Source of the DNA: a virus
Length of the DNA: 47,749 bases
IMG/VR virus record: IMGVR_UViG_3300045988_059296
Direction: 5' to 3' (one strand)
The notes below the pieces were generated by a model, which saw nothing but the letters and a program-made list of their open reading frames with translations, made no database searches and was not told the origin of the DNA. The translations under genes and the position numbers were made by a program. Shown piece after piece: positions 1,414-43,202 of this stretch (position 1 is its first letter; each line of letters begins with the position of its first letter).

Positions 1414-2673
1414 TTGGTGAAGCAAGGTCCACGGAAACCAGCTTCCGCCCGCCGCGGACGCGCGGCGCGGTCCGATGATGACGCGTTGCGTGCGGCGGGA
1501 GCCGCAGACGCGCAAGGCCGATTCTATACACGGCAAGGAGTTTTTTATACGCAAGGCGCAGAATTCGAGCAGGTATATGATTTCGGGAACCTATACGCGG
1601 GGTTCCTGAAAGCACGCAGGGGCAAGCGACACAAACCCAGCGTTGCAAAATTTGAAGCAAATCTTCTTGAAACCCTATGCCTACTTTCGGAAATGCTGAA
1701 AACCAAAACATACCGACCGTCAGATTATTTCGTTTTCAAGGTCTATGAACCGAAAGAACGAATCGTTATGACGAACGCATTCAAAGACAAGGTGGTTCAA
1801 CATTCCCTATGCGACAACATACTTGAACCCGCGTTTTCAAAAGCCTTTATCCGGGACAACTACGCATCGCAGAGCGGGCGCGGAACACATGACGGGTTAT
1901 ACCGCCTTGAAGAATTCATGCGGTCCTACTACTTCACACGCAAGGCGAACGCCGAGCGGGAGCGGCGGGCCGCGGGATTGCCGCCGCCCGGCCCGGAGGA
2001 AGTGCGGCACTATTCGGACGGCTGGGTTTTGAAATGCGACATATCGAAGTATTTCTATTCAATCCAGCATGAACCGTTAAAGCAGATGACGCGGAAGTAC
2101 ATCAAAGACCCGGATATTCTGTGGTTAGTTGACCTTATCGTTGACAGCACGGAAAATCCGGGAATTCCTATCGGCAACCAGACTTCACAATGGTTCGCCG
2201 TCATGTATCTTTCAGGCATGGACCATTTCATAAAAGAAAAGCTGGGTATTCGCTATTATGGGCGGTACATGGACGATTTCTATTTGATACATGAGGACAA
2301 GGCATATTTGCAATACTGCCGGGGCGAGATCGAACAATACGTTGCCCGGCTGGGCCTGCGGATGAACAAGAAAACAAATATTTTCCCGTTGCGGAACGGT
2401 ATTGATTTCTTGGGCTTCCACACCTACTTGACCGAATCGGGCAAAATCATTCGCAAAGTCCGGCGGTCAAGCAAATGTAACGCACAACGCAAATTGAAGA
2501 AACAGCGCGGTCTACTGGACCGGGAGAAAATCAGCCTTTCAGACATTGAACAGTCATACGGAAGTTGGCGGAGCCACGCCGTAAAGGGAAACTGCTATCA
2601 CCTGATACAGAAAACCGACAGTCTGTTTCAAAATCTATTCAAGGAGAGTGAAAAACAATGGCCCAAAGTTTGA
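1414..2673 (+). CDS. DGR-type reverse transcriptase.
   Basis: PIGNQTSQWFAVMYLSGMDHF (the DGR-typical IGxxxSQ motif), a YMDD catalytic box and SQSGRGTHDG. The start is uncertain: there is no in-frame ATG before the conserved core, so TTG 1414 or GTG 1417 are candidates. Confidence 0.9.
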   Translation: MVKQGPRKPASARRGRAARSDDDALRAAGAADAQGRFYTRQGVFYTQGAEFEQVYDFGNLYAGFLKARRGKRHKPSVAKFEANLLETLCLLSEMLKTKTYRPSDYFVFKVYEPKERIVMTNAFKDKVVQHSLCDNILEPAFSKAFIRDNYASQSGRGTHDGLYRLEEFMRSYYFTRKANAERERRAAGLPPPGPEEVRHYSDGWVLKCDISKYFYSIQHEPLKQMTRKYIKDPDILWLVDLIVDSTENPGIPIGNQTSQWFAVMYLSGMDHFIKEKLGIRYYGRYMDDFYLIHEDKAYLQYCRGEIEQYVARLGLRMNKKTNIFPLRNGIDFLGFHTYLTESGKIIRKVRRSSKCNAQRKLKKQRGLLDREKISLSDIEQSYGSWRSHAVKGNCYHLIQKTDSLFQNLFKESEKQWPKV

Positions 2674-4376
2674 ATGCGCTTGCCGTCGGTGCGCTTGTCA
2701 AAGATACAGGCACGCTTTACAACGGTAAGCCGATCATTTGGAAAATCGCCGACAAGGGACACACGGGCTACCCGTCCGGCGCTGTGACCCTGATTACGGA
2801 GCGCATTATTTCGCTGAAATGCTTTGACGCTATCGAATCCGGCAACAGCGACGGCAACCGCCGCAGTTACGGCAATAACCGTTGGACCCTTTCTAACGTG
2901 CGGCAATGGCTGAACAGTCAGGCCGCCGCCGGGAAGTGGTACAGCGCCCAGCATGGCGCAGACGCGGCCCCGACGAATGCGAACGTATGGAGCAACTACA
3001 ACGAATACGACGCGGAAGCGGGCTTTCTTGCGGGCTTCTCCGCGAACTTCATTGCGGCCCTGCTGACTACGACCCACACCGTAGGCAAGGCGACCGTAGA
3101 CGGCGGCGGTACGGAGAGTTGCGCCGACAAAATCTTCCTTGCGACCTGTACGGAAGTCGGCTTGTCCGGCGACGTGACCGCGGGAAGCAAGCTGGCCTTG
3201 TTCAGCGACGACAATTCCCGTCTTGCCTACCCCACGGCGGAAGCCGTGAGCAAGAGCGAATACACGAACGGCAGTTTCAACGTAAATTCGCCGCGGTATT
3301 GGTGGCTTGCCGACGCTTACGCGTCCAGCTCTTACATCGTCCGCCACGTCAATTCCTCTGGCGCGGTGATCTGGAGCGACGCTTACATCGGCTACCTCGG
3401 CGTTCGCCCGCTTTGTAATTTGTCCTCTGGAATCTTGGTATCTGATAGCCCGGATTCCGACGGAGCATACACGATCATTTGGAACCGCGCCCCCTCGAAG
3501 CCCTCTTCCATCACGGTTCCGTCCAGCGTGCGCGGCGGCGAAAGCCTGTCTATCAGTTGGGGGGCTTCCACGGACGAAGACGGCAATCTTTCCGGCTATA
3601 TCCTCGAACGGCAGGTCAACGGCGGCGCATGGGCGCAGGTATACAAGGGCATCAACCGCAGTTACACAGACGCAATCACGTTCGGCTGGACCTCTGTTGC
3701 GTACCGCGTCAAGGCGTATGACAGCGCGGGCGCGGAATCGGCGTATCAGACCAGCGCGACGCGGACGGTGGTAAACAACCATGCGCCCGTTATCAGCGGC
3801 ACAGATTCCAACTTGGGAACGAAGACCGCCGCGTTCGCGCAGAGTTACAGCGTAACGGACGAAGACAGCGGGCAGACCTTGACCGTGACAGAGTACATCG
3901 ACGGCACGCAGAAGCGTTCCTACACCGCGACAAGCGGACAGACCTATTCATTCAACATCACCGCCGCAGAGTGGGTGAAGCTGTTGAACGGGTCCCATAC
4001 GCTGAAAATCGTTGCGGCGGACAACTACGGCGGAAGCGCGACCCGGACGTATACGTTCACGAAAAATGAAACGGAAATCGAACTTACGCTTGCTACCCCG
4101 CTTACTGCCGACGATATGGTGACAAAGGGTATCATGTCTGTCGTGCGTCAAATTCCAGCAGGTGCAAAATTCACCGTGGAAGTCTGCAACAACGGCAACG
4201 ACGCTTCCCCGACGTGGGAGGACGTGACGCAGAACGTCGTAAGCGGAAGTAAGTTCTTCCTTTCCAACACAACCAAAACGGCGAGCGCTTGGGGCTACAA
4301 TTTCCGCATCAAGGTAAAGCGCGGAACGGCAACGGGCGATTGCTTCATTACGTCTGCGGGAGGTAACTTTGAATGA
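2658..4376 (+). CDS. DGR target protein 1 (572 aa). It has an N-terminal variable ligand-binding domain (YWWL...GVRPLC, C-type-lectin-like / DUF6273-like), an FN3 domain, an Ig-like domain and a C-terminal beta domain. Probably a receptor-binding tail protein.
   Basis: Contains VR1. The FN3-like segment is PSKPSSITVP...WGASTDEDGNLSGYILERQVNGGAW...YRVKAYDSAG. RBS AAGGAG precedes the start. The gene sits between the tail fibre and the lysis cassette. Confidence 0.8.
   Translation: MAQSLNALAVGALVKDTGTLYNGKPIIWKIADKGHTGYPSGAVTLITERIISLKCFDAIESGNSDGNRRSYGNNRWTLSNVRQWLNSQAAAGKWYSAQHGADAAPTNANVWSNYNEYDAEAGFLAGFSANFIAALLTTTHTVGKATVDGGGTESCADKIFLATCTEVGLSGDVTAGSKLALFSDDNSRLAYPTAEAVSKSEYTNGSFNVNSPRYWWLADAYASSSYIVRHVNSSGAVIWSDAYIGYLGVRPLCNLSSGILVSDSPDSDGAYTIIWNRAPSKPSSITVPSSVRGGESLSISWGASTDEDGNLSGYILERQVNGGAWAQVYKGINRSYTDAITFGWTSVAYRVKAYDSAGAESAYQTSATRTVVNNHAPVISGTDSNLGTKTAAFAQSYSVTDEDSGQTLTVTEYIDGTQKRSYTATSGQTYSFNITAAEWVKLLNGSHTLKIVAADNYGGSATRTYTFTKNETEIELTLATPLTADDMVTKGIMSVVRQIPAGAKFTVEVCNNGNDASPTWEDVTQNVVSGSKFFLSNTTKTASAWGYNFRIKVKRGTATGDCFITSAGGNFE
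3321..3415 (+). repeat. DGR variable repeat VR1.
   Basis: 95/95 collinear with the TR and differs at 11 positions, all adenines in the TR. Encodes ASSSYIVRHVNSSGAVIWSDAYIGYLGVRPLC. Confidence 0.93.
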
Positions 4377-10401: not shown

Positions 10402-11094
10402 TCAGAACTGTTCGTATGTATAGCCGCCGTTTTCGTCCAGCGTGATAGCGCCGTAATCTTCAAGAATAGAACCGTCGGTATCTTGCTTCCCGTATGTACC
10501 GACATAGTACATAGAACCGGGGAAACAAATACCCGTGCCGTCATCACAAAGAATTGCAACCCAGTTGTAGCCGCTGTCCTTGACGACGGTTTCAACGAAT
10601 TCTTTGTAGTTTTCTTCCGTAATGGATTGAAGCTGTGCTTTCGTAATGCGGATATAGGCGTATTCACCGATTTTGTCGCCGGAACCAGTTTTCACGTCCT
10701 TTACAGTTAAGTCATAGTCCATCAAGACGTTGTGTTTGTGATATTCAGGGTACAGCATATCACGCCCAGAATAGACGGTTTCAACCGCACCGTCAGAAAG
10801 TGTAACGTCGAGGGATGAACCGCCGTAATAGACGGTATACGCGCCCTTGCTTTCGGAAATGCTTGTAATCTTACTATCAAGGCCGCAGGAAGTCAGAACG
10901 ATAAAGACTTCATCGGCCTGTTCGGGAGTGATTTTCATATCCGCCCGAATGGTGTTCATGGCATCGGGGTAAAAATCATACTGCGCCGTCAGTTCCTCCG
11001 ATTTGGGCGTGTCCAAATCGACAAGAGCGCCGCCGCAGGCGGAGAGGGACGCGGCAAGCACCGCCGCAAGGACAAGAGATAGAACCTTTTTCAT
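10402..11094 (-). CDS. Secreted lipoprotein (230 aa), a candidate superinfection-exclusion or surface-modifying factor.
   Basis: Signal peptide MKKVLSLVLAAVLAASLSAC with lipobox LSAC. RBS GGAGGA. Own promoter. Located in the lysogeny region. Confidence 0.8.
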   Translation of the reverse strand: MKKVLSLVLAAVLAASLSACGGALVDLDTPKSEELTAQYDFYPDAMNTIRADMKITPEQADEVFIVLTSCGLDSKITSISESKGAYTVYYGGSSLDVTLSDGAVETVYSGRDMLYPEYHKHNVLMDYDLTVKDVKTGSGDKIGEYAYIRITKAQLQSITEENYKEFVETVVKDSGYNWVAILCDDGTGICFPGSMYYVGTYGKQDTDGSILEDYGAITLDENGGYTYEQF

Positions 11095-11177
11095 GTGAAA
11101 TCCTCCGTTCTGCCGCCCAGTGTCCGGGCGGCTTGCGTTATTTTCAAAGGCCGGGACCATTGCTTTTTCTGGATTCT

Positions 11178-11243
11178 GACCTTTAACACAATTATCAATG
11201 CTTATTGTGCTAAAGTCAAGAAAAATGCAGACCTTTAACACAA
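11178..11243. promoter_or_regulatory. Overlapping divergent promoters with operator-like repeats.
   Basis: Leftward promoter TTGACT (11219-11214) N17 GATAAT (11196-11191). Rightward extended -10 TGcTAAAGT (11208-11216). Direct repeats gacctttaacacaa at 11178-11191 and 11230-11243. Inverted partner attgtgctaaag at 11204-11215. Confidence 0.55.
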
Positions 11244-11259
11244 AAGGAGGAATCGGCGG

Positions 11260-11505
11260 TTGAAGATATACGACTACAAGGGACGAAAGAACCTTTGCGG
11301 AAATCGCGTCAAAGAAGCACGCGCCCGGCTGAATATCACGCAAACAGACCTTGCGGCGCGTCTGCAAGTTGCAGGAATTACAATGGAGCGGGACAGCGTA
11401 AGCAGAATTGAAATCGGGACCCGCTTTGTGACTGATTATGAACTTGCGGTGCTTGCGAAGATACTTGGCGTATCTATGGAATGGCTGACAGAAAATGAGC
11501 AATAG
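11260..11505 (+). CDS. XRE-family helix-turn-helix transcriptional regulator (81 aa), a Cro/CI-type switch protein.
   Basis: RVKEARARLNITQTDLAARLQVAGITMERDSVSRIEIGTR is a classic HTH_3 pattern. TTG start 9 nt after AAAGGAGG. Confidence 0.85.
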   Translation: MKIYDYKGRKNLCGNRVKEARARLNITQTDLAARLQVAGITMERDSVSRIEIGTRFVTDYELAVLAKILGVSMEWLTENEQ

Positions 11506-11609: not shown

Positions 11610-11630
11610 CGCATTTTGGGAGGTTATAGC

Positions 11631-16810: not shown

Positions 16811-17083
16811 AAGCGGGTTCCGCCGATGAAAATATATCAGCTATCAACCTACCGTTAGTATATCAAAAACGGCGGAAAAAGTCAACAAATAACGCCGTTT
16901 TTGCGCGGCGTGGCGGGCTTGTAATGGGTATTAACGTTCCTGCGATTAGCCTTGTCACGCATGACAACAGGACCGGGAAGAAAGACACGTCCTATCTGGT
17001 GTTCTTCCCACCTGCATAGACAACTACACACGCCGGAAGTAAAGCCCCGCCCGCTTCCTCTACCCGCAAAAGGAGTGAAGCAA

Positions 17084-24574: not shown

Positions 24575-24577
24575 AAT

Positions 24578-24590
24578 GTCCGATTCGGAC
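24578..24590. promoter_or_regulatory. Palindrome GTCCGATTCGGAC immediately upstream of parB, a candidate centromere/parS-like or operator site.
   Basis: Read directly. It is the same 13-mer as at 8046-8058 and 39620-39632. Confidence 0.5.
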
Positions 24591-24605
24591 GGAAAGGGGC
24601 TATCT

Positions 24606-25787
24606 ATGGGAAGATTTAATTTGAACCAGATTTTGAGTGACACGTCAAAGGCGGCGGCGGGCGGCGGGGGTGCAAAGCCCCGCCCCTCTGAAAGCCGCTA
24701 TGAGAAATTGAGCGTCTTTGACCTTGTACCGTCGGAGGACAATTTCTATTCCATGCGGGAAATCGGGGAACTGAAAGCGGCAATCGAAATCGCCGGGAAA
24801 GTTCTTCAAAACCTTGTCGTCGTTCCGCTGGGCGACGGCAAGTACAAGGTCATTGCCGGGCATCGCCGCCGCCTTGCTTCTATCGAACTTGTGAACGATG
24901 GGAAGCCAGAATACGAATTCGTTCCATGCGTCATCGAACCGACAGAGGAAGCGGCGGACGAACAGGAAATACGCGACGGGCTGGACCTGATCGTTACCAA
25001 CTCGCAGAGAGAAAAGACCGCATGGGACAAAATCGAAGAGGTTCGCTATCTGCGGGAGGTTTTGGAGAAAGCGAAAACAAAGCCCCGGTTCGTCGAACTG
25101 TTGCGCCGCATCGTCGAAAAGACGTTTGAAGACGGAGAGTTACAGACGGACGGGACCCGCGATTTTATCGCAAAGGTGCTTCATACCAGCACAACGCAGA
25201 TTGGACGATATGACACCATCATTCGCCATTTGTCCCCGGAATTCACGGAGGAACTGAAAGCGGACCGCATCAACCTTTCGACCGCCTACGAATTGGCGGG
25301 CCTGCCTGCGGAGAACCAGAACGCCGCCTTTAAGGAATATCACCTGACCGGGGCAATTTCTATCAAGGCCGCGCGGGAATGGAAACGTCCTGCCCTGCCT
25401 GCACCGCCCGCAGAGGACACCGCCACACCTACGCAGGCAGAACGCCCACAGAAAGAGCGGGAACCCGTAGTCGAGCGGGACAAAGTGCCGGACACGCAGG
25501 CCACGCCGCCGTATAGCGCCGCTGTGGAGCGGGACACCGCAGACGGGACGCAGGACACGAAGCCGACCGAAAGCACCCAGCAGAGCGCACCACGCCGCCC
25601 GCAGGCTACCAGAAGTAGCGAATGCGGGATTTGCCCGTATTGCGGGGCGAAGTTTGACGCGGCAAAAGTTATCGAATACAACATTCGCGGCGCGGCGGAG
25701 GGAAAGCCGCACACCTGCCAACATTGCGGACAGCGGGTGAAAATCTTTTGTTCGGTTTCTTATTTCTGTTCCCCGGCGGAAGAGTGA
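24606..25787 (+). CDS. parB: ParB-like partition/nuclease-domain protein with a C-terminal zinc ribbon.
   Basis: LQNLVVVPLGDGKYKVIAGHRRRLAS is a ParB N-terminal box. C-terminal CGICPYC...CQHC. ATG 24606 follows GGAAAGGGG; the alternative start is 24576. Confidence 0.85.
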   Translation: MGRFNLNQILSDTSKAAAGGGGAKPRPSESRYEKLSVFDLVPSEDNFYSMREIGELKAAIEIAGKVLQNLVVVPLGDGKYKVIAGHRRRLASIELVNDGKPEYEFVPCVIEPTEEAADEQEIRDGLDLIVTNSQREKTAWDKIEEVRYLREVLEKAKTKPRFVELLRRIVEKTFEDGELQTDGTRDFIAKVLHTSTTQIGRYDTIIRHLSPEFTEELKADRINLSTAYELAGLPAENQNAAFKEYHLTGAISIKAAREWKRPALPAPPAEDTATPTQAERPQKEREPVVERDKVPDTQATPPYSAAVERDTADGTQDTKPTESTQQSAPRRPQATRSSECGICPYCGAKFDAAKVIEYNIRGAAEGKPHTCQHCGQRVKIFCSVSYFCSPAEE

Positions 25788-36561: not shown

Positions 36562-37992
36562 ATGGCAAACTATTTTCACGGCGTTTCGACGCGTCAGAAC
36601 GACACGTCGATTTCTACCCCTGTAACCGCTGATTCTGGTATTGCGTTCGTCGTCGGCGCGGCCCCAGGTCATACCGTGGGCGGCGCACCGAACGACCCTA
36701 TCATGTGTCAGTCTTACGCGGAAGCCGTCGCCGCTTTGGGGTATAGCGACGATTGGGAGAAGTACCCAATCTGTGAAGCTATCTATTCGCAGTTCAAGCT
36801 GTACGGCGTGGCCCCTGTGGTGTTCGTGAACGTGCTTGACCCTGCGAAGCACAAGAAGAGCGTCGCAGAACAGAACTACCCCGTCGCAGACGGAAAAGTT
36901 CTGCTTCCCCTCGAAGCCCTGAAAAACACGGTCAAGGTGACAAGCTACACCGCCGGGACCGACTATGAACTTTTCTATGAGGGTGAAAACCTGATTCTTG
37001 AAGTTCTGGACGGCGGCAGTATTTCCGCTGAAACGGGAGAACTGACAATCACGTTCGACGCGGTGGACCCCTCCAAAATCAACGAAAACGACATTATCGG
37101 CGGTTTCGATACCAGCACGAAGAAGTATTCCGGTCTTGAACTGATCGACAAGGTTTTTCCGAAATACGGCATCGTCCCCGACCTTATCGTTGCCCCCGGC
37201 TGGTCCGACAAGTCCAATGTCGCGGCGGTTATGACCGCAAAGGCGGATGCAATCAACACCGTGTTCACGGGTGCAAAAGCCCTGATCGACGCGGACACAA
37301 ACACCGTTCGCCACTACGCGGACGTTCCCGCATGGAAGAAAGCACAGAACATGAACAGCAAGGCGGAAATTCTCTGCTGGCCTATGTTCGGGCTGGGCGA
37401 CCGTGCGTTTCATGCGTCCGTCCACGCCGCGGGCCTGATGGGAAAGACCGATTCGGACAACGGCGGTTGCCCGGCGGAAAGCCCGTCGAACAAGTCATTG
37501 CAGATCGACCGCGCTATGCTTGCGGACGGAACGACTGTGCTTCTCGATCTCGCGCAGGCAAACTACCTGAACAGTAACGGTATCGTTACGGCGCTGAACT
37601 TCATTGGAAGCTATGTGCTGTGGGGCGATGAAACCGCCTGCTTCCCCGCCGATACGGACGTGAAGAACTACTTCATTTCCGTTTCCCGTATGTTCGGTTG
37701 GGTTGCCCGTTCTGTCATTCTTACTTATTGGAGCAAGATCGACAAGAAAATGACGCGCCGCCTTATCGACAGCATCGTTGATTCCGTAAACATTTGGCTG
37801 AACGGCCTTGTTTCGGAAGAAAAGCTGTTGGGCGCACGCGTGGAGTTTCTGGACGAAGAGAACAGCACGACCGCGCTTATGGCGGGCAAGGCTGTTTTCC
37901 ATATCTACATGACCCCCGCAAGCCCCATGAGGGAATGCGAATTCGTCCTTGAATACGACGCGGACTATGTGACTGCGGCGCTGTCGGCGTAA
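36562..37992 (+). CDS. Contractile tail sheath protein.
   Basis: 476 aa. N-terminus YFHGVSTRQNDTSISTPVTADSGIAFVVG. RBS AAGGAGG. Followed by the tube gene. Confidence 0.85.
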   Translation: MANYFHGVSTRQNDTSISTPVTADSGIAFVVGAAPGHTVGGAPNDPIMCQSYAEAVAALGYSDDWEKYPICEAIYSQFKLYGVAPVVFVNVLDPAKHKKSVAEQNYPVADGKVLLPLEALKNTVKVTSYTAGTDYELFYEGENLILEVLDGGSISAETGELTITFDAVDPSKINENDIIGGFDTSTKKYSGLELIDKVFPKYGIVPDLIVAPGWSDKSNVAAVMTAKADAINTVFTGAKALIDADTNTVRHYADVPAWKKAQNMNSKAEILCWPMFGLGDRAFHASVHAAGLMGKTDSDNGGCPAESPSNKSLQIDRAMLADGTTVLLDLAQANYLNSNGIVTALNFIGSYVLWGDETACFPADTDVKNYFISVSRMFGWVARSVILTYWSKIDKKMTRRLIDSIVDSVNIWLNGLVSEEKLLGARVEFLDEENSTTALMAGKAVFHIYMTPASPMRECEFVLEYDADYVTAALSA

Positions 37993-38006
37993 GGAGGTAA
38001 AGAACA

Positions 38007-38522
38007 ATGAAAATTGAAAACGGCGTAACCAACTTTGCCGTATATGAGGACGCGACCGAATATTACGGCATGGCAGAAGTCACACTTCCTGAAATCACGC
38101 AGATTTCGGAAGAGGTCAAGGGCGCGGGCATCGCAGGTACGTTCGACGGAACGTTTGTCGGACACCTTGAAGCTATGTCCCTGACCCTGAATTTCCGTTC
38201 CGTCACTACGGACGCTATCAAGCTGGCAGAGCCGCGCAAGCACCAGCTTGATTTGCGGGCGGCCCAGCAGTCTTGGGATAACAGCACGGGCCGCTATGTC
38301 CAGCAGGCCGTGAAGCACGTCCTTGTCGTCAATCCGAAAAAGTTTGCCCCTGGCAAGCTGGCCCCGGCATCTTCCGCGGAAGCGTCCGGCGAATATCCCG
38401 TGACCTACTACGCAACGTACATCGACGGTAAAAAGGTTCTGGAAATCGACATTCTGAACTTTATCTACTACGTCAACGGCGTTGATTACCTCGAAGACGT
38501 GCGAAAGGCACTTGGCAAGTAA
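38007..38522 (+). CDS. Tail tube protein (P2 FII-like).
   Basis: 171 aa. NFAVYEDATEYYGMAEVTLPEI... Synteny sheath-tube-chaperone-tape measure. Confidence 0.8.
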   Translation: MKIENGVTNFAVYEDATEYYGMAEVTLPEITQISEEVKGAGIAGTFDGTFVGHLEAMSLTLNFRSVTTDAIKLAEPRKHQLDLRAAQQSWDNSTGRYVQQAVKHVLVVNPKKFAPGKLAPASSAEASGEYPVTYYATYIDGKKVLEIDILNFIYYVNGVDYLEDVRKALGK

Positions 38523-38551
38523 AACCCGGCGGGGCTTCCCGCTGGGTTTTA
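38522..38551 (+). terminator. Hairpin / partial terminator after the tube gene.
   Basis: aaacccggcggg-gctt-cccgctgggtttt. Confidence 0.6.
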
Positions 38552-38605
38552 TTATGCCCTTTTCTGCATCTGAAAATATGAATTTCTAAATCGGAGGAAT
38601 TGACA

Positions 38606-39016
38606 ATGAGTGAGAACATCAAAAACACCGCCGCAGAGAGCGCACAGAACGCCGCAGGCGCGGCGGAAGCTGTCACCCATGATATGACCGCGGAAGCCGT
38701 AAACGAACCCGTACAGGCTGACGCAGGCGTTTATACGCACACGTTCAAGAAGCCTTTCGAGTACGCAGGCGAAACCTATACGACCCTGACGTTCGATTTC
38801 GAGAAAATGACGGGCCGCGACATGGTTTCTATCGAAACCGAAATGCAGATGAACAATGAATACTGCCTTGCGCCGGAAGTGTCCCGGAGTTTTCAGGCGA
38901 AAATGGCGGCAAAGGCCGCGGGCATTGGTAGCGACGTTCTCGACGCTATGCCTATCAAGGACTTTAACCGCATCACCAACGCGGCAAGGAGTTTTTTAAT
39001 CGACACGGGCTATTAA
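38606..39016 (+). CDS. Tail assembly chaperone (P2 gpE / Mu gp41-like), zero-frame product.
   Basis: RBS GGAGGA 7 nt upstream. Position between the tube and the tape measure. Ends shortly after a slippery heptamer. Confidence 0.7.
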   Translation: MSENIKNTAAESAQNAAGAAEAVTHDMTAEAVNEPVQADAGVYTHTFKKPFEYAGETYTTLTFDFEKMTGRDMVSIETEMQMNNEYCLAPEVSRSFQAKMAAKAAGIGSDVLDAMPIKDFNRITNAARSFLIDTGY

Positions 39017-39168
39017 AAAGCCCGGCGAAGTGGTGGCGGCGGGAGTGCTTCAAGCTGGCGCAGGCAACGTATACGCCCGTCCCGTTCTGGCTTGATATGA
39101 ACATGACGGAAATTACGGCGTGGATTGAGGACATAAACGCCGCCACAAGAGAAAATCGGAGCAAATAA
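38606..39168 (+). CDS. Tail assembly chaperone frameshift product (E+E'-like), made by a -1 slip at 38992-38998.
   Basis: The -1 frame stays open from 38998 to TAA 39166-39168. The 56-aa extension NRHGLLKSPAKWW...LDMNMTEITAWIEDINAATRENRSK resembles gpE' tails. Confidence 0.6.
38992..38998 (+). other. Slippery heptamer T_TTT_TTA for a programmed -1 ribosomal frameshift.
   Basis: It is in the X_XXY_YYZ phase relative to the chaperone frame (agt ttt tta). Confidence 0.6.
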
Positions 39169-39208
39169 AAGCGGGACCGTTTAAGCGGCCCCGCACGTTG
39201 GGTTGATT

Positions 39209-39790
39209 TTATACAGTGGCATCAAGCATCGAATAGAATTCTTCTTCCGAAATAATTTGAACAGGCTTGCCCTTTTTCTGCAATTCTGCGGCTTTCTGTA
39301 CCTTACGGGAAGCAATACCGCCGTTCATTTCGGACCATTCCTGACTTCCCAAAACAAGATAATTCATCGTGTTTACGGGACTGTCCGACGTTAGACCGCC
39401 ACGCTTGCGAATCTCGAAAAGTGCTTCCGCCCGTTCCATTCGGGACAAGTCGCCCGTAATAACAAACATTTTGTTGCGGAGCGGGCTTTTTTGAAGTGCC
39501 TGCAATCTTGCGGCGACACCATCGGGCAACGGGGCAAGTTTCTTTGCACGCTTATATGCGGCAAAAGCACAGCGCCCGGAGCCAATACTCCAAAAGAAGT
39601 CACCCAACGTCAAGAACACGTCCGATTCGGACAAAACGGTTTCGCTAAAAGCGTTTGCAAGTGCGGCGATTTCGATTTCAAGTTGTCCGTCGCTGGAATT
39701 GGCGTTGAACATGGACGAAAAGGTGTTGGCGGGCTTACATATTCCAGTCCCCGGAACCTCTTCTTTCCAGTAAGAAACATCGTTGAACAT
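39209..39790 (-). CDS. BRCT-domain protein (193 aa). A reverse-strand accessory gene (moron) inserted between the tail chaperone and tape measure genes.
   Basis: The C-terminus KMFVITGDLSRMERAEALFEIRKRGGLTSDSPVNTMNYLVLGSQ...SRKVQKAAELQKKGKPVQIISEEEFYSML matches the LigA-type BRCT pattern. ATG 39790 lies 7 nt after GGAGG. The gene has its own promoter and terminator. Confidence 0.7.
   Translation of the reverse strand: MFNDVSYWKEEVPGTGICKPANTFSSMFNANSSDGQLEIEIAALANAFSETVLSESDVFLTLGDFFWSIGSGRCAFAAYKRAKKLAPLPDGVAARLQALQKSPLRNKMFVITGDLSRMERAEALFEIRKRGGLTSDSPVNTMNYLVLGSQEWSEMNGGIASRKVQKAAELQKKGKPVQIISEEEFYSMLDATV
39615..39636. repeat. Second copy of the 22-bp repeat with palindrome GTCCGATTCGGAC (39620-39632), inside the BRCT gene.
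   Basis: Identical to 8041-8062. Confidence 0.9.
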
Positions 39791-39811
39791 TACATAACCT
39801 CCATTCATTTT

Positions 39812-39883
39812 TGTGTTAATGTTCAGAGAAATTCTTATCTTTAACACACCATCAATTAAAGTATAAAAAATGCGAAAAGTCAA
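39812..39883 (-). promoter_or_regulatory. Promoter of the BRCT gene, TTGACT (39883-39878) N17 TTTAAT (39860-39855), with TTAACACA-type operator half-sites at 39841-39848 and 39812-39819.
   Basis: Read directly. It has the same 10-mer ctttaacaca as at 11181-11190 and 11231-11240. Confidence 0.5.
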
Positions 39884-39902
39884 GGGAGGGAGGTAATGCG
39901 GC

Positions 39903-42900
39903 ATGGCTGGACGAAAAGAATATGAACTGCTTTTCAAACTGCAAGCGGCTTTGGGCGGCAACTTCAACACGGTTTTTCAAAGCGCGTTGAACACCACGAA
40001 GCAAATGCAGAACAGCCTAACGAAGCTAAATTCCATCACCGGGAAAATCGACGCTTACAAAAAACAGGAAGCCGCCCTTGAATCGAACCGTCAAAAGCTG
40101 GAACGCCTGACCGCAGAGCATGACAAACTCCAACGGGAAATGAGCGAAACCGCCGCCCCGTCGGAAGAACTGCGGCAGAAGATGGCGAAGAATGAAAAGC
40201 AGATCGCCGCGACAACTGCGAAAATCGAAGCGCAGGAACAGCGGTTGCAGACGCTTGGTTCCGAACTGTCCGCCGCAGGCGTGAACACGGCGAATTTGAG
40301 CGCGGAGAATGAACGGCTTGCAAAAACCTATGACAAGGTAAAGAAAAGTCAAGAGGAAATCGCAAAGGTCAATACCGCGTTAGAGCAGAACAATACTTCT
40401 ATCAGCAACACCAAAACACAGCTTGCCGGGGTGATAGGAACCGCGGCGGCGTTGGGTGCGGCAATTTACGCCGGACCTGTTAAAAAGTCGCGCGAACTTG
40501 AAGCACAAATGTCCACCGTGAAAGCAATTTCAAACGCAACAACGGAGGACATGACACGCCTAACCGATATGGCTAAACACATGGGCGCGACAACGCAGTT
40601 CACCGCCGTTGAAGCCGGAAAAGCCCTTGAATATATGGCTATGGCAGGTTGGAAGACCGACCAAATGTTGGGCGGCTTGCCCGGCATTATGAACCTTGCC
40701 GCCGCGTCCGGCGAAGACTTGGGGCAGGTTTCCGACATTGTAACGGACGCGCTGACAGCGTTCAACATGACGGCGGACCAGTCCGGGCGCTTTGCGGACG
40801 TACTCGCGCAGGCATCCTCCAACGCGAACACCAACGTTTCCATGATGGGCGCGACGTTCCAGAAAGTAGCGCCCGTGGCGGGCACGTTGGGCTACTCTGT
40901 GGAAGATATGTCGCTTGGTATCGGTTTGATGGCGAATGCGTCTGTTAAAGCAGAAACCGCAGGCACAAGCCTAAAGACGGCCCTTGCGAATATGGCGAAG
41001 CCAACAAAGCAAATGCAAGCCTACATGGACAAGTACGGAATCAGCCTGACGAATGCGGACGGAAGCATGAAGACGTTCCGCGAGGTCATCGACAATCTGC
41101 GGTCCAGTTTGGGCGGGCTTTCCAAAACTGAAAAGACCGCGGCGGCTACCGCCATTTTCGGCAAAGAATCTTTCGCGGGTATGCTTGCTATCGTAAACGC
41201 AAGCGACGCTGATTTCAAAAAAGTGTCCGATGCGGTCAACAACGCCGCAGGCGCGGCGGAGCGTATGGCGGCAATCAAGCTGGATAATTTGGAGGGCGAC
41301 GTAACACTATTAAAGTCTGCGACAGACGGATTGCAAACGGCTATCGGTGACGCACTACTCCCGACGTTTCGCGCTGGAACACAACAACTTACAAAGTTTG
41401 TTTCAAACTTGACGGAATTTATCAACGCAAACCCGGAACTTGTGCGGACCATCGTAAAGGTGACGGCGGGCCTGTTGGCATTCAAGGCCGCGGCCCTGAC
41501 CGCAAAGCTGGGCTTTCTTGAACTGAAAGGCGGCGTGCTGACTATTCAAAAGGTCATGGCGCTTTTCAAGGGAAAGACAGCGCTTGCGGGCGTGGAAGCC
41601 GTCGGGTTCGCAGGAAAGGTCAAGGGCGTTGCAAAGAGCGTGACCGGGTATTTCAGCGGCATTGGGTCCGCGGCGGGCGGTGTAGGCCGTGCGTTCGGGC
41701 AAATGTTCAGCGGAACAAAAATCGGCGGCGCGTTCTCCAAAATCGGCGGCGCGGCGGGCGGCGTATTCTCGAAGCTGTTTTCGGGGATGGGCGGCGTTGC
41801 GACGCGGGCATTCACGGGCGTTGCCGGGACAATCACCAACATATTAGGCAAGGCCGGGACCGCTGTTACGGCGGGTCCGCTGGGTAAAATCGGTTCCGTT
41901 ATCGGAAAGGGTTTCGGGAAAATAGGAACCCTGATTGCCCCGCTTCAAAAGCTGGGCGGCGCTATCTTGGGGCCGTTCAGCGGCATTCTTGGCAAGGTGC
42001 TTCCCGTGGTGGGCGTTATTTCGCTGATCGTTGCCGCGGTCCAAATCCTACGGGACAATCTGGACAAGGTGCGCGAAGTCGTCGAACGAGTATTTGGCAA
42101 AGCCGGGCTTGATGTGTTCAACGGAATTGTTGACGCAATAACCAACATCGGCGATACGATACGCAACATCTTCACGGACGGCAATTTGGGCGGCGCACGG
42201 CAATTCCTGATAAACCTGTTCGGAGAGGAAGCAACGGGCGTTATCGACGGGGCCATTACGATTTTACAAACCGTCTGGAATATCCTTTCCGGGTTCATCG
42301 AGTTTGTGAACACCTATGTTCGCCCCATTGTGGAGCAAATCTTTTCTTTCATCGTCGGGACCGTGCTTCCGCAGATCGCGCAGGCGTTCGCGGAGTGGGC
42401 GCCGACTATCGCTTCTATCCTGCAAGGACTTGCGGAAGTGGTTTCCACCATTGCAACGGCAATCATGGCAGTTATTCAATTCCTTATGCCGACGATACAA
42501 AGCATCATCGGCGTTGCGCTTGAAACCATCAAGGGCGTTGTATCTGGTGCGCTGACCGCGATAAAGGGCCTTGTAGACGTTTTCGCAGGCATCTTCACGG
42601 GAGATTGGACCCGTGTTTGGGAGGGCGTGAAAAGCATATTCAGCGGCGTTTGGAATTCTCTAAAGAGCATTGCAAGCGGCGTACTGAACGGCATTATCGG
42701 GCTTGTAAACAATGTGATTTCCGGTCTAAATAATTTGAAAGTCCCTGATTGGGTCCCCGGCATCGGCGGAAAGAGCATCAACATTCCGTTAATACCGCGG
42801 TTTGCAACAGGTACAGACAGCACGCCGAACACGTTCATAGCTGGTGAGCAGGGCGCGGAACTTATCACCAACGCAAAGAACCGAAGCGTATTCACCGCGG

Positions 42901-43202
42901 CGCAGACGGGAAGCATCTTCCGCAATCTTGCGGACACGGTGAACGCTATTCGCACCGCAGGGGCCGCGCCGTATCAACTGGCCTACGCGGGAGCGCCCAG
43001 CGTTGCCGCACCGACCCTGAACGCAGGCGGCGGCAGAACGTCCGTCGTCATTCACAGCGCACCCGTGTTCCACGTCGGCAACGACGCGCAGGCACAGGAC
43101 ATTGAAGAAATGCTACGCCGCCACGACGAAGAGTTGTTGGACGAAATCGACGAGCGGGAGCGGCAAAGACAGGACGACGAAAGGCGGCGGAACTATGACT
43201 AA
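39903..43202 (+). CDS. Tail tape measure protein.
   Basis: 1099 aa with an N-terminal coiled-coil, a central Ala/Gly-rich TM-like region, and a position after the chaperone. RBS GGGAGGGAGG. Confidence 0.9.
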   Translation: MAGRKEYELLFKLQAALGGNFNTVFQSALNTTKQMQNSLTKLNSITGKIDAYKKQEAALESNRQKLERLTAEHDKLQREMSETAAPSEELRQKMAKNEKQIAATTAKIEAQEQRLQTLGSELSAAGVNTANLSAENERLAKTYDKVKKSQEEIAKVNTALEQNNTSISNTKTQLAGVIGTAAALGAAIYAGPVKKSRELEAQMSTVKAISNATTEDMTRLTDMAKHMGATTQFTAVEAGKALEYMAMAGWKTDQMLGGLPGIMNLAAASGEDLGQVSDIVTDALTAFNMTADQSGRFADVLAQASSNANTNVSMMGATFQKVAPVAGTLGYSVEDMSLGIGLMANASVKAETAGTSLKTALANMAKPTKQMQAYMDKYGISLTNADGSMKTFREVIDNLRSSLGGLSKTEKTAAATAIFGKESFAGMLAIVNASDADFKKVSDAVNNAAGAAERMAAIKLDNLEGDVTLLKSATDGLQTAIGDALLPTFRAGTQQLTKFVSNLTEFINANPELVRTIVKVTAGLLAFKAAALTAKLGFLELKGGVLTIQKVMALFKGKTALAGVEAVGFAGKVKGVAKSVTGYFSGIGSAAGGVGRAFGQMFSGTKIGGAFSKIGGAAGGVFSKLFSGMGGVATRAFTGVAGTITNILGKAGTAVTAGPLGKIGSVIGKGFGKIGTLIAPLQKLGGAILGPFSGILGKVLPVVGVISLIVAAVQILRDNLDKVREVVERVFGKAGLDVFNGIVDAITNIGDTIRNIFTDGNLGGARQFLINLFGEEATGVIDGAITILQTVWNILSGFIEFVNTYVRPIVEQIFSFIVGTVLPQIAQAFAEWAPTIASILQGLAEVVSTIATAIMAVIQFLMPTIQSIIGVALETIKGVVSGALTAIKGLVDVFAGIFTGDWTRVWEGVKSIFSGVWNSLKSIASGVLNGIIGLVNNVISGLNNLKVPDWVPGIGGKSINIPLIPRFATGTDSTPNTFIAGEQGAELITNAKNRSVFTAAQTGSIFRNLADTVNAIRTAGAAPYQLAYAGAPSVAAPTLNAGGGRTSVVIHSAPVFHVGNDAQAQDIEEMLRRHDEELLDEIDERERQRQDDERRRNYD

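What the first reader, a model, noticed from the sequence alone, without database searches (positions are those of the whole stretch)
39209..39883. Reverse-strand BRCT-domain gene wedged between the tail chaperone and the tape measure gene
In tailed phages the chaperone genes normally abut the tape measure gene. Here a 193-aa minus-strand gene interrupts them. It has its own TTGACT-type promoter, an RBS and a terminator hairpin shared with the chaperone gene at about 39170-39196. Its C-terminal 85 or so residues match the LigA-type BRCT pattern. The N-terminal half matches no family I recognise and includes a TPR-like helix pair. BRCT domains bind phosphoproteins, nucleic-acid ends or nucleotide-derived ligands, and I do not recognise a phage moron of this type. 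The promoter carries the same TTAACACA operator as the lysogeny switch. The coding sequence contains one copy of the GTCCGATTCGGAC palindrome. Possible roles are a lysogen-expressed defence or counter-defence factor, or a factor linked to DNA repair or NAD metabolism.
Basis: partly seen in the sequence, partly recalled or inferred. Interest (0 to 1): 0.7.

Follow-up and report, generated by a model that had tools for sequence, protein, structure and literature searches.

The report
Mobile BRCT-domain accessory gene in phage tail module
A small, optional gene cassette inserted backwards between two tail-assembly genes of a gut-bacterium phage encodes a protein with a DNA-end-reading (BRCT) domain and shares a control site with the phage's membrane-protein cargo gene. 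This makes it a good but untested candidate for a new phage conflict or DNA-damage-sensing factor.

Summary
Window 39209..39790 (-) is a real 193-aa gene under purifying selection (dN/dS 0.10-0.20). Residues ~101-193 are a BRCT domain of the RFC1/LigA class, with the T-G and Arg phosphate-pocket residues conserved. Residues 1-100 are a family-specific beta-hairpin plus a TPR-like helical bundle.

The gene lies in a ~760-bp, low-GC cassette (39145..39903) that has its own promoter, operator and minus-strand terminator. Fourteen IMG/VR phages with 97-100% identical chaperones lack the cassette. In them the chaperone frameshift product sits 14 nt from the tape measure gene. One relative carries a lipoprotein gene in the same slot, and another carries the BRCT gene in a different slot.

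The promoter's operator box (TGTGTTAAAGRTMAGAAT) recurs at the window's XRE/lipoprotein divergent promoter. In 103 of 115 IMG/VR loci with enough upstream sequence, the box lies next to a homologue of that XRE regulator.

The BRCT module is repeatedly fused to, adjacent to, or co-resident with a Cys-rich domain of unknown fold, which this window lacks. Its closest BRCT relatives sit on DEDDh exonucleases in prophage lysogeny modules.

Function is untested. The best guess is an XRE-controlled accessory protein that reads 5'-phosphate DNA ends or nicks and acts in exclusion or defence. The rivals are end protection, DNA-damage sensing and ligase mimicry. It is a new member of the moron class, and interest is moderate.

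The parts
39209..39790 (-). Coding sequence of the 193-aa TPR-like/BRCT protein (stop codon 39209-39211).
   Evidence: ORF and start context. 34 homologue clusters. dN/dS 0.10-0.20 with dS saturated.
39212..39490 (-). BRCT domain, residues ~101-193. Putative phosphate-pocket residues are T112, G113, R120 and K163.
   Evidence: sequence profiles. (AF2 b-a-b-b-a-b-a topology, pLDDT 84-94). (Foldseek RFC1 and LigA BRCT). (residue conservation). This part has pI 9.1.
39491..39790 (-). N-terminal domain, residues 1-100. It has a low-confidence beta-hairpin (3-26) followed by four helices (34-100) that include one TPR-like motif (LGDFFWSIGSGRCAFAAYKRAKKLAPLP).
   Evidence: AF2 model. Weak TPR_CcmH_CycH match, E 0.14. 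No Pfam or PHROG family. Homologous helices in P0055. Acidic, pI 4.7.
39798..39802 (-). Ribosome-binding site GGAGG, 7 nt before the ATG.
   Evidence: Sequence. Conserved in relatives.
39855..39883 (-). Sigma-A-type promoter TTGACT-N17-TTTAAT (-35 at 39878-39883, -10 at 39855-39860).
   Evidence: Unique 29-mer in the window. Near-identical in all homologous cassettes, including those in another slot and those driving a different cargo gene, although synonymous sites are saturated.
39812..39848 (-). Operator. The box TGTGTTAAAGATAAGAAT (39848..39831) and the inverted half-site TTAACACA (39819..39812) lie just downstream of the -10 hexamer.
   Evidence: The perfect palindromic form TGTGTTAAAGATAAGA-T-TCTTATCTTTAACACA occurs in L175 and in L035, with near-perfect forms in L052 and L100. 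103 of 115 box-bearing IMG/VR loci with enough upstream sequence have the XRE homologue alongside.
39161..39194 (-). Intrinsic terminator of the BRCT gene: hairpin 39194..39171 followed by TTTTATTT.
   Evidence: Non-homologous hairpins followed by a T-run sit at the same place in L005 and L006, and a hairpin in L001.
39145..39903 (.). The whole inserted cassette (~760 bp, GC 46.5% against ~55% in the flanks). It also supplies a new RBS (GGGAGGGAGG) and an ATG for the tape measure gene, which starts with TTG in empty-site phages.
   Evidence: Junction comparison with L139. Gap statistics. GC content.
39620..39632 (.). Palindrome GTCCGATTCGGAC inside the coding sequence (codons for S-E-S-D). Role unknown.
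   Evidence: Kept with the same Ser codons in the genes of L001, L011 and L014.
38600..39168 (+). Tail assembly chaperone (38600..39016) and its -1 frameshift extension (slippery T_TTT_TTA at 38992-38998, stop codon 39166-39168). This is the left neighbour of the cassette.
   Evidence: Phage_TAC_7 E 4.1e-10. Frame translations.
39903..43202 (+). Tape measure protein gene, the right neighbour of the cassette.
   Evidence: Synteny with PhageMin_Tail genes in L001-L004.
11260..11505 (+). 81-aa XRE-family HTH regulator, the candidate trans-acting binder of the operator.
   Evidence: HTH_3 E 7.5e-8. Homologues (57-99% identity) lie divergently next to the operator box in 103 of 115 loci.
11172..11248 (-). 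Promoter and operator of the lipoprotein cargo gene: TTGACT-N17-GATAAT followed by TGTGTTAAAGGTCAGAAT, with a second box copy over the XRE gene's RBS region.
10402..11097 (-). 231-aa lipoprotein (lipobox LSAC), a co-regulated cargo gene. A homologue occupies the chaperone/tape-measure slot in L175.

Best explanation
SHOWN. The feature is a self-contained, horizontally shuffled accessory cassette (a moron) made of a promoter, an operator, a gene and a one-way terminator. It is inserted backwards at the chaperone/tape-measure junction of a cos-type myovirus-like phage of Oscillospiraceae. It encodes a cytoplasmic 193-aa two-module protein with an acidic TPR-like helical N-terminus and a basic RFC1/LigA-class BRCT C-terminus. 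The phage does not need it: near-identical phages lack it.

INFERRED FROM SEQUENCE LOGIC. Transcription starts from a strong sigma-A promoter. It is controlled in trans by the phage's 81-aa XRE regulator through the TGTGTTAAAGRTMAGAAT operator, which sits at about +1. The gene therefore belongs to the same regulon as the variable membrane or lipoprotein cargo gene next to the XRE gene. The regulator can switch it off, for example during late growth when tail-gene transcription must cross it in the opposite direction.

INFERRED, LEAST CERTAIN. The BRCT pocket (T112-G113, R120, K163) binds a phosphate group, most likely the 5'-phosphate at a nick or recessed DNA end, as the isolated RFC1 BRCT does. 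The TPR-like module holds a protein partner. In relatives that partner is probably the Cys-rich protein that is fused to, adjacent to or co-resident with this BRCT module. In the cell, the protein would mark or occupy DNA ends and nicks on incoming or replicating foreign DNA, such as the annealed cos ends of a superinfecting phage before ligation. That would give the lysogen exclusion or defence.
For: Real gene:
- dN/dS is 0.10-0.20.
- 34 clusters show full-length conservation.

BRCT domain:
- T112, G113 and R120 align with RFC1 T-G and R in the HMMER alignment.
- R120 and K163 are invariant, and T112 and G113 are at least 90% conserved.
- The isolated RFC1 BRCT binds recessed 5'-P DNA with a Kd of about 10 nM (PMC9293004, read).
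- The BRCT half is basic, pI 9.1.

Cassette or moron status:
- 46 of 49 related IMG/VR loci have the chaperone end 8-81 nt from the tape measure start. These include 14 loci with 97-100% identical chaperones.
- The BRCT gene is present only in L142, L164 and L166.
- A lipoprotein gene fills the same slot in L175.
- The same gene and promoter sit in another slot in L007.
- Cassette GC is 46.5% against 55% in the flanks.

Regulon:
- The same operator and promoter architecture is found at the lipoprotein/XRE region.
- At least 120 IMG/VR hits carry the box.
- In 103 of 115 box-bearing loci with enough upstream sequence, an XRE homologue lies divergently alongside.
- The cargo genes downstream are almost all membrane or lipoproteins.

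Partner link:
- The Cys-rich domain is fused to this BRCT in P0037, P0038 and P0049.
- It is adjacent in L137 and L138.
- It is co-resident with the same promoter in L010 and L006.

Lysogeny-side placement of the BRCT subfamily:
- IPP43 has an exonuclease-BRCT between the CI operon and the integrase.
- CJIE4 has one in the CI operon beside a KAP NTPase.
- P0038 lies between a CI-like gene and a serine integrase, alongside DUF4258 and Uma2.
Against: - There are no expression, binding or phenotype data.
- No PADLOC defence model matches.
- The operator position implies repression by XRE. If XRE is the repressor that is active in lysogens, the gene would be off there.
- This window has no Cys-rich partner, so the protein must act alone or with a host factor.
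- Pfam BRCT is just below its cut-off.
- K163 is equated with RFC1 K458 by my own manual alignment and by residue numbers recalled from Kobayashi et al. 2006/2010, which I could not read.
- In whole RFC, 5'-P and 5'-OH DNA bound equally well (PMC9293004), so the 5'-P preference of this BRCT class depends on context.
- BRCT pockets can also bind phosphopeptides or ADP-ribose/NAD-type ligands.
Confidence: 0.4

Rival explanations
1. Counter-defence or self-protection. The protein is made early from the constitutive promoter. It caps the phage's own DNA ends or nicks (cos ends, rolling-circle tails). In doing so it out-competes host or prophage nucleases that find DNA through the same BRCT subtype, or AddAB-type exonucleases, in the manner of a Gam-like end protector.
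For: - The BRCT is closest to the BRCT of DEDDh exonuclease-BRCT proteins (PRK06195 E 2.8e-16, against LigA ~3e-7).
- Those exonuclease-BRCT proteins are carried by other prophages in lysogeny modules, so a nuclease-free copy could act as a competitor.
- The phage has a GpA-type cos terminase and a G2P-like Rep, so it produces 5'-P ends.
- The promoter needs no phage factor.
Against: - The gene shares its operator with membrane or lipoprotein cargo genes typical of lysogen-expressed exclusion functions.
- Relatives of the BRCT module sit on the CI/integrase side of prophages rather than among early lytic genes.
- Its antisense position inside the tail operon is awkward for a gene needed during lytic growth.
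Confidence: 0.2
2. DNA-damage sensor or regulator. The BRCT reads nicks or gaps that appear after DNA damage. The TPR-like module then binds and inactivates a small HTH repressor that lacks a self-cleaving domain, such as the 81-aa XRE. This would tune induction or derepress the cargo regulon, as an antirepressor would.
For: - The gene is wired to the XRE operator.
- The XRE protein has only an HTH domain.
- The Cys-rich-BRCT fusion P0038 lies directly downstream of a 110-aa CI-like HTH gene.
- The Cys-rich and TPR-BRCT pair in L137 follows a small 100-aa gene on the same strand, divergent from a block of small genes and RepA_N.
- A 2026 preprint reports BRCT-containing modules replacing quorum-sensing lysis-lysogeny modules in Roseobacter prophages and suggests that they sense DNA damage (10.64898/2026.07.02.736140).
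Against: - Fourteen near-identical phages lack the cassette but keep the XRE/operator module. For example, L064 and L141 come from one contig. The protein therefore cannot be the core induction sensor.
- There is no evidence for a TPR-XRE contact.
- The preprint's BRCT proteins were not compared with this family.
Confidence: 0.15
3. Host-ligase or replication modulator. As a free LigA-like BRCT, the protein competes with or recruits host NAD-dependent ligase at nicks, or binds NAD/ADP-ribose-type ligands. This would alter sealing or repair in the host's or the phage's favour.
For: - Matches to LigA BRCT segments: TIGR00575 2.8e-7 and PRK07956 2.9e-7, and 1l7b 0.0023.
- BFVD Foldseek hits include phage 'NAD-dependent DNA ligase subunit B' and other small BRCT proteins.
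- The PDB hit 9hu3 is a heterodimeric phage ligase.
Against: - No HhH, OB or adenylation domains are present, and the scores are far below the ligase cut-offs.
- None of the window ORFs I profile-scanned is a ligase catalytic subunit; the window was not annotated exhaustively.
- The BRCT is closer to exonuclease-linked BRCTs than to LigA.
- The repeated link is to a Cys-rich domain, not to ligase parts.
Confidence: 0.1
4. Not a functional gene: a chance ORF or a decaying remnant in an intergenic spacer.
For: It is absent from most close relatives. Two database relatives look frameshifted or truncated (P0033 and P0019-type fragments).
Against: - dN/dS is 0.1-0.2 across eight sequences with saturated dS.
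- The reading frame is intact in 3 isolate or MAG genomes and in many metagenome contigs.
- The AF2 model is confident.
- The promoter, RBS and terminator are conserved.
- The P0001 cluster has 314 member sequences.
Confidence: 0.02

Closest known systems
BRCT region of RFC1 (human p140; PDB 2ebu, 2k6g/2k7f) and the C-terminal BRCT of bacterial NAD-dependent ligase LigA (1l7b)
   Same: Same fold: rmsd 2.2 A over 90 columns at 30% identity. Same T-G and Arg pocket residues in the alignment, plus a conserved Lys. A helix precedes strand b1. This class binds DNA with a 5'-phosphate (PMC9293004).
   Different: The phage protein is a stand-alone 193-aa protein joined to a TPR-like module, not part of a clamp loader or a ligase. 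It has a 10-residue insertion (EWSEMNGGIA) before helix a2. It is encoded on a mobile phage cassette.
DEDDh exonuclease-BRCT proteins (NCBIfam PRK06195, usually annotated 'DNA polymerase III subunit epsilon' or 'exonuclease'), including those of Streptococcus phage IPP43 and Campylobacter prophage CJIE4
   Same: This is the closest BRCT subfamily: E 2.8e-16 and 32-40% identity over residues ~92-190 by tblastn. These proteins are also carried by temperate phages as non-essential genes on the repressor/integrase side.
   Different: The phage protein has no exonuclease domain. A TPR-like helical module takes its place. The gene sits in the tail module rather than the lysogeny module.
Phage morons, as defined for lambdoid phages (Hendrix/Juhala): extra genes with their own promoter and terminator between genes that are adjacent in relatives, e.g. 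lambda bor/lom or P2 fun(Z) (from my own knowledge)
   Same: It has its own promoter and terminator, a deviant GC content and presence/absence polymorphism between near-identical phages. The slot is used by different cargo genes.
   Different: The cassette is oriented against the late operon. It is wired in trans to an XRE regulator through a long palindromic operator. The cargo is a cytoplasmic BRCT protein rather than a membrane or surface protein. The cassette also replaces the start codon and RBS of the tape measure gene.
Small BRCT subunit of heterodimeric NAD-dependent ligases of T5-like and PR1 phages (PDB 9hu3; BFVD 'ligase subunit B')
   Same: Both are phage-encoded small proteins that consist largely of a LigA-type BRCT (phrog_2561 E 3.9e-4).
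   Different: I found no ligase catalytic subunit in the window and no HhH domain in the protein. The match is weak. The gene is accessory rather than part of a replication module.
PHROG 3989 (296-aa phage proteins, function unknown)
   Same: The BRCT region matches its C-terminal 90 positions, E 2.4e-11. The Cys-rich-BRCT fusions match it too.
   Different: Only the BRCT part matches. The PHROG carries no functional annotation.

Membership tests
BRCT domain (Pfam PF00533; RFC1/LigA DNA-binding class) | b1-a1-b2-b3-a2-b4-a3 fold of ~90 residues | tested here: met
   AF2 elements are E108-112, H120-129, E133-135, E144-147, H149-155/H162-172, E178-181 and H182-191, with block pLDDT mostly 84-94. 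Foldseek to 2ebu and 2k7f gives prob 1.00, TM (target) 0.60 and rmsd 2.2 A.
BRCT domain (Pfam PF00533; RFC1/LigA DNA-binding class) | Profile match above the curated threshold | tested here: inconclusive
   Pfam BRCT scores 19.2 bits against a cut-off of 21.3, E 0.0015. However, the BRCT segments of NCBIfam PRK06195 (2.8e-16) and the LigA models (~3e-7) match, as does phrog_3989 at 2.4e-11. The family profile finds 1557 BRCT-bearing proteins.
BRCT domain (Pfam PF00533; RFC1/LigA DNA-binding class) | Phosphate-binding pocket: T/S-G after b1, Arg in a1, Lys at the start of a2 | tested here: met
   T112-G113 and R120 align with RFC1 'ITG' and 'IER'. R120 and K163 are invariant, and T112 and G113 are at least 90% conserved, in 26 sequences. 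Equating K163 with RFC1 K458 rests on my manual alignment and on recalled residue numbers.
BRCT domain (Pfam PF00533; RFC1/LigA DNA-binding class) | Binds 5'-phosphorylated DNA ends or nicks | not testable with these tools
   This needs EMSA or fluorescence polarisation with 5'-P and 5'-OH substrates.
NAD-dependent DNA ligase LigA | Adenylation, OB, Zn-finger and HhH domains upstream of the BRCT | tested here: not met
   Only model positions 578-652 of 652 match, at 29 bits against a cut-off of 444. The N-terminal 100 residues match nothing.
DEDDh exonuclease-BRCT (NCBIfam PRK06195) | N-terminal RNase_T/DEDDh exonuclease domain | tested here: not met
   The match covers only positions 212-307 of 309, at 59.8 bits against a cut-off of 373. 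There is no RNase_T hit, whereas true members have one.
Phage moron | Lies between genes that are adjacent in close relatives | tested here: met
   In 46 of 49 related loci the chaperone end lies 8-81 nt from the tape measure start. These include 14 loci with 97-100% identical chaperones.
Phage moron | Own promoter and terminator; composition differs from the flanks | tested here: met
   Promoter, terminator and GC of 46.5% against ~55%. This is sequence-level evidence only, and transcription was not measured.
Phage moron | Expressed from the prophage | not testable with these tools
   This needs RNA-seq or 5'-RACE on a lysogen.
Known anti-phage defence systems (PADLOC-DB v2) | Match to any defence-protein model | tested here: not met
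   There are no families at E<=1 for the protein and none for the Cys-rich relatives. Exonuclease-BRCT relatives hit only the DEDDh and PDC-S48 exonuclease parts.
TPR repeat proteins | Significant TPR profile match, or at least 3 tandem helix-turn-helix repeats | tested here: inconclusive
   The only hit is TPR_CcmH_CycH at E 0.14 over residues 60-93. AF2 shows four helices, and one 34-residue stretch fits the TPR consensus by eye.

The most novel reading that the evidence does not exclude
The TPR-like/BRCT protein and the Cys-rich protein (five invariant Cys, confidently predicted structure with no match in the PDB search) are the two parts of an undescribed prophage accessory system. The parts are sometimes fused, sometimes adjacent and sometimes split between two tail-module slots. 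Both are driven by one XRE-controlled promoter-operator cassette. In this system a bacterial BRCT domain acts as the sensor of DNA ends or nicks. The system would be either a new kind of DNA-end-triggered exclusion or defence, or an SOS-independent DNA-damage input to prophage decisions.
Probability: 0.3. Interest if true: 0.75.

Novelty: new member of a known kind. Interest (0 to 1): 0.5.

Why it matters
BRCT domains are central phosphate and DNA-end readers in eukaryotic damage signalling. In bacteria they are known almost only as appendages of LigA and of a poorly studied exonuclease.

This locus shows a free BRCT module that moves as a self-contained promoter-operator-gene-terminator cassette among gut Oscillospiraceae phages. 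It is wired to a widespread XRE-controlled cargo regulon and is repeatedly coupled to an unknown Cys-rich domain.

Natural phage variants with and without the cassette exist, which gives a clean test of what a bacterial BRCT reader does in phage-host or phage-phage conflict. The XRE/operator/cargo module (at least 120 IMG/VR hits) is also a practical handle for finding further accessory genes in these uncultured phages.

If the protein turns out to be an ordinary DNA-binding helper, the result is still a well-delimited example of moron exchange at two tail-module hotspots.

Tried and rejected
- Megablast of 38000-41000 against INPHARED phages found no match, so no annotated close relative exists there.
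- PADLOC gave nothing for the protein, for the Cys-rich proteins or for the lipoprotein.
- Pfam at E<=10 and PHROGs gave nothing for the N-terminal 105 residues or for the Cys-rich domain.
- Foldseek of the full model against PDB and BFVD returned only BRCT matches and nothing for the N-terminal bundle.
- The AF2 model of the Cys-rich-BRCT fusion P0037 (pLDDT 86) also returned only BRCT matches in PDB, and a PDB sequence search agreed. The partner domain therefore stays unidentified.
- Rfam on 38900-40100 gave only a sub-threshold L20-leader hit (25.9 bits against 58.7), which I treated as chance.
- I considered reading the inverted repeat TGTGTTAA-N21-TTAACACA as a 5'-UTR RNA hairpin and rejected it. 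At the lipoprotein promoter the same repeat spans the -35 hexamer, and a further half-site follows the -10. In more than 100 loci a half-site pair brackets the -10 hexamer, so part of the repeat lies upstream of the transcription start. In other loci the element is a perfect 33-bp DNA palindrome.
- Strict covariation between each phage's BRCT-promoter box and its XRE-side box was not found. L012 has TGTGCTAAAGATTAGAAT while L040, on the same contig, has TGTGTTAAAGGTCAGAAT.
- I considered the GTCCGATTCGGAC palindrome as a parS-like site, because one copy overlaps the start of the ParB-like gene. I could not test this. In 1.48 Mb of related loci it occurs only in the BRCT gene and at one conserved intergenic site.
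- Literature searches for BRCT with prophage, anti-phage, defence system, moron or superinfection exclusion found no characterised phage BRCT moron. One hit was a false match to the term 'BRiCs'.
- Kobayashi et al. 2010 (RFC1 BRCT-DNA) is not held, so the RFC1 residue numbers are from memory.
Full report
**Observation.** The minus strand of 39209..39790 carries an open frame. Its likely start is ATG 39790, preceded by GGAGG at 39802..39798, giving 193 aa.

- Upstream lies TTGACT-N17-TTTAAT (39883..39855). This 29-mer is unique in the window, with 0 matches expected.
- The generic promoter scan missed it only because of its rule for position 2 of the -10 hexamer.
- Downstream, the hairpin 39194..39171 (9 pairs, 8 G-C) is followed by TTTTATTT on the minus strand. 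On the plus strand no T-run follows it, so it should let late transcription pass. I read it as a one-way terminator, not a shared one.
- The left neighbour 38600..39016 is a Phage_TAC_7 chaperone. It has a classic -1 slippery site T_TTT_TTA at 38992-38998, and the frameshift product ends at 39168.
- The right neighbour 39903..43202 is the tape measure gene.

**It is a real gene.**

- A sequence search found 34 clusters (57-99% identity, mostly full length) that align over the whole protein.
- Pairwise dN/dS among eight genes is 0.10-0.20 with synonymous sites saturated. The BRCT half (0.05-0.11 in the closer pairs) is more constrained than the N-terminal half (0.12-0.21).
- Isolate or MAG genomes with the gene belong to Oscillibacter valericigenes, Dysosmobacter and Acutalibacter intestini.

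**Domains.**

- Residues ~101-193 match the BRCT segment of NCBIfam PRK06195 (DEDDh exonuclease-BRCT, E 2.8e-16) and of LigA models (~3e-7).
- They also match phrog_3989 (2.4e-11) and the RFC1 and ligase BRCT chains in PDB.
- Pfam BRCT itself scores just under its cut-off (19.2 against 21.3 bits).
- An AlphaFold2 model (pLDDT 84, pTM 0.77) shows the BRCT topology. Foldseek superposes it on the RFC1 BRCT at 2.2 A over 90 columns. BFVD hits are phage ligase or BRCT proteins.
- T112-G113 and R120 align with the RFC1 'ITG' and 'IER' residues. R120 and K163 are invariant in the family, and T112 and G113 are at least 90% conserved.
- From my recollection of Kobayashi et al. 2006/2010, these correspond to the 5'-phosphate-contacting T415, G416, R423 and K458. 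I could not read those papers.
- A held paper confirms that the isolated RFC1 BRCT binds recessed 5'-P DNA at about 10 nM. It also reports that whole RFC does not distinguish 5'-P from 5'-OH (PMC9293004).
- The BRCT half is basic (pI 9.1) and the N-terminal half acidic (pI 4.7).
- Residues 1-100 form a low-confidence beta-hairpin plus four helices. One 34-residue stretch fits the TPR consensus, but the only profile hit is E 0.14.
- No Pfam, PHROG, PADLOC or fold match exists for this half.
- An exhaustive profile search of 1.84 billion representatives found the N-terminal half only in this small family and a few short TPR-like/BRCT proteins (P0043, P0052, P0055). The BRCT part alone reaches 1557 proteins.

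**The gene sits on a mobile, dispensable cassette.**

- In L001-L004 (72% identical protein) it occupies the same chaperone/tape-measure slot.
- In Acutalibacter (L007, 58% identity) the same gene with the same promoter sits in a different slot, between the Minor_tail_Z-like gene and the next head-tail gene.
- Among 52 IMG/VR loci with a related chaperone, 49 have a resolvable junction. In 46 of these the frameshift product ends 8-81 nt before the tape measure start. They include 14 loci whose chaperone is 97-100% identical to the window's.
- Only L142, L164 and L166 carry the BRCT gene.
- L175 carries, in the same slot but on the forward strand, a 233-aa lipoprotein homologous to window 10402..11097.
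- Comparison with an empty site (L139) delimits the insert as 39145..39903. It replaces about 34 nt and brings a new RBS and an ATG for the tape measure gene, which starts with TTG in empty sites.
- Cassette GC is 46.5% against ~55% in the flanks.
It shows that the gene is accessory.

**Regulation.**

- The promoter 29-mer is nearly identical in all cassettes although synonymous sites are saturated.
- Directly after the -10 hexamer lies TGTGTTAAAGATAAGAAT, with an inverted TTAACACA 21 nt from its TGTGTTAA half-site.
- The same arrangement, TGTGYTAA-N21-TTAACACA, occurs only once more in the window, at 11206-11242 (0 expected).
- There, on the minus strand, TTGACT-N17-GATAAT-TGTGTTAAAGGTCAGAAT drives a lipoprotein gene (10402..11097). 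A second box overlaps the RBS region of a divergent 81-aa XRE gene (11260..11505).
- Scanning IMG/VR for the 18-mer box gave at least 120 hits. More than 100 of them show the same promoter-box layout.
- In 103 of 115 loci with enough upstream sequence, a homologue (57-99% identity) of this XRE protein is encoded divergently within 700 nt.
- The downstream cargo genes are almost all membrane proteins or lipoproteins.
- In several loci the operator is a perfect or near-perfect 33-bp palindrome.
- I therefore infer that the XRE protein controls the BRCT gene in trans, together with the variable membrane-protein cargo. The operator's position at about +1 argues for repression.
- Whether XRE is active in lysogens, or acts as a Cro-like shut-off during lytic growth, cannot be decided here.
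- A different operator family (TATACTAACGTTAGTATA, sitting in or next to the cores of four promoters at ~9150, ~9975, ~10045 and ~11515) probably belongs to the main immunity circuit.

**Functional links.**

- The most similar BRCT domains outside the family (E about 1e-40) belong to ~410-aa proteins with a Cys-rich N-terminal domain. That domain has the motif CCSRYxxCS...C...CxYR and five invariant Cys.
- That domain is linked to this BRCT module in four ways:
  1. It is fused to it in either order (P0037, P0038, P0049).
  2. It is encoded immediately upstream of a TPR-like/BRCT gene in L137 and L138.
  3. In the L010 phage it is present as a second reverse-strand cassette in the other slot, with the same promoter, alongside the 189-aa BRCT gene.
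  4. In the Dysosmobacter prophage L006 it is present without a BRCT in that second slot, again with the same promoter, alongside the 188-aa BRCT gene.
- L016 shows the same promoter driving a Cys-rich protein alone.
- The window itself has no Cys-rich homologue.
- The fusion's AF2 model is confident (pLDDT 86), but only its BRCT part matches anything in PDB.
- Elsewhere this BRCT subtype sits on DEDDh exonucleases in prophage lysogeny modules. Streptococcus phage IPP43 has one between the CI operon and the integrase. Campylobacter CJIE4 has one in the CI operon beside a KAP NTPase.
- P0038 lies between a CI-like gene and a serine integrase, next to DUF4258 and Uma2 genes.

**Mechanism.**

- Shown: the locus is an optional, self-contained cassette encoding a TPR-like/BRCT protein.
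- Inferred from sequence logic: it is controlled by the XRE regulator as part of a cargo regulon.
- Inferred with least certainty: the BRCT reads 5'-phosphate nicks or ends, and the TPR-like module holds a partner (the Cys-rich protein in relatives, or a host factor here). This would give exclusion or defence against incoming DNA, such as cos ends awaiting ligation (confidence 0.4).
- Rivals:
  - End protection or competition with BRCT-guided nucleases (0.2).
  - A DNA-damage sensor or antirepressor acting on small HTH repressors (0.15). A 2026 preprint suggests BRCT-based regulator modules in Roseobacter prophages.
  - A LigA mimic or NAD-type ligand binder (0.1).
  - A non-functional ORF (0.02), which contradicts.

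**Comparison and novelty.**

- The protein is a member of the BRCT superfamily. The fold and pocket tests were met, and the Pfam threshold was narrowly missed.
- It is not a ligase and not an exonuclease-BRCT, because their defining domains were tested and are absent.
- It meets the sequence-level criteria of a moron.
- No PADLOC model, PHROG annotation or paper in the held library describes a phage BRCT moron.
- I file it as a new member of a known kind (a moron with a new cargo family), with moderate interest.
- The more novel reading is a two-part BRCT/Cys-rich system that senses DNA ends. The evidence does not exclude it.

Noticed in passing
window 11172-11248, and >=120 IMG/VR hits (L019-L135): A widespread module in uncultured gut phages. 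A small XRE gene lies divergent from a promoter whose -10 hexamer is bracketed by the TTAACACA/TGTGTTAAAGGTCAGAAT operator. That promoter drives highly variable membrane, lipoprotein or zinc-ribbon cargo genes (101-aa MFVSFTKTLKKM..., 230-aa lipoprotein, 125-aa MKCQNCG..., and others). It looks like a hotspot for exchangeable cargo.
   Followed up: partly
L010 8001-9239; L006 10531-11247; L137 6112-6990; L016 3898-: A Cys-rich domain family (CCSRYxxCS...C...CxYR, five invariant Cys, about 34 clusters). Its AF2 model is confident but has no PDB fold match. It is repeatedly fused to, adjacent to or co-resident with the BRCT module and shares its promoter cassette.
   Followed up: partly
window 8046-8058, 24578-24590, 39620-39632 (and 37446-37458 with 1 mismatch): The palindrome GTCCGATTCGGAC has 3 exact copies against 0.12 expected. 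One copy overlaps the ATG of the ParB-like gene, and one lies between convergent genes. The copies at 8046 and 39620 share a 22-nt stretch. In BRCT genes of relatives the palindrome is kept with the same Ser codons although dS is saturated. It may be a parS-like or other protein-binding site.
   Followed up: partly
window ~9140-9165, ~9960-9985, ~10030-10055, ~11508-11530: A second palindromic operator family, TATACTAACGTTAGTATA (TATACTTGCGTTAGTATA in two of the four sites). At ~9150 it lies between consensus TTGACT and TATAAT hexamers. The other three sites sit in or next to promoter-like -10 elements. This is probably the main immunity circuit, separate from the XRE box.
   Followed up: no
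window 11598-12680: An IS30-type transposase (HTH_38 + rve) is inserted directly downstream of the XRE gene. In L062 the same XRE-IS30 arrangement is followed by a host-like glutamyl-tRNA synthetase gene. The IS may mark a prophage end or have disrupted the early operon.
   Followed up: no
window 1414-4376 (and 16007-16744): Diversity-generating retroelement. A reverse transcriptase (RVT_1, 1414..2673) is followed by a DUF6273 protein (2658..4376), and a second DUF6273-like gene lies at 16007. bAvd-like genes occur in relatives L001-L004. Template and variable repeats were not searched for.
   Followed up: no
window 16952-17905, 23589-25787: G2P-like rolling-circle Rep, ParA (AAA_31) and a weak ParB_N-like protein. 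No integrase was found among the ORFs I scanned, so the element may be maintained as a phage-plasmid.
   Followed up: no
window 39885-39905 compared with L139 3066-3083: The cassette changed the tape measure gene's translation start. Empty-site phages use AAAGGGGTGGTGAATTTG (TTG start), and the window uses GGGAGGGAGGTAATGCGGCATG (ATG start). The -35 hexamer of the BRCT promoter abuts this RBS on the opposite strand.
   Followed up: yes
L017 (Streptococcus phage IPP43) 2829-3752; L018 (Campylobacter CJIE4-2) 3260-4303: DEDDh exonuclease-BRCT genes annotated 'exonuclease', 'dnaQ' or 'DinG helicase' sit in the repressor/integrase modules of many streptococcal and Campylobacter prophages. Their exonuclease part hits the PADLOC candidate PDC-S48. 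They may form an unrecognised prophage defence family.
   Followed up: partly
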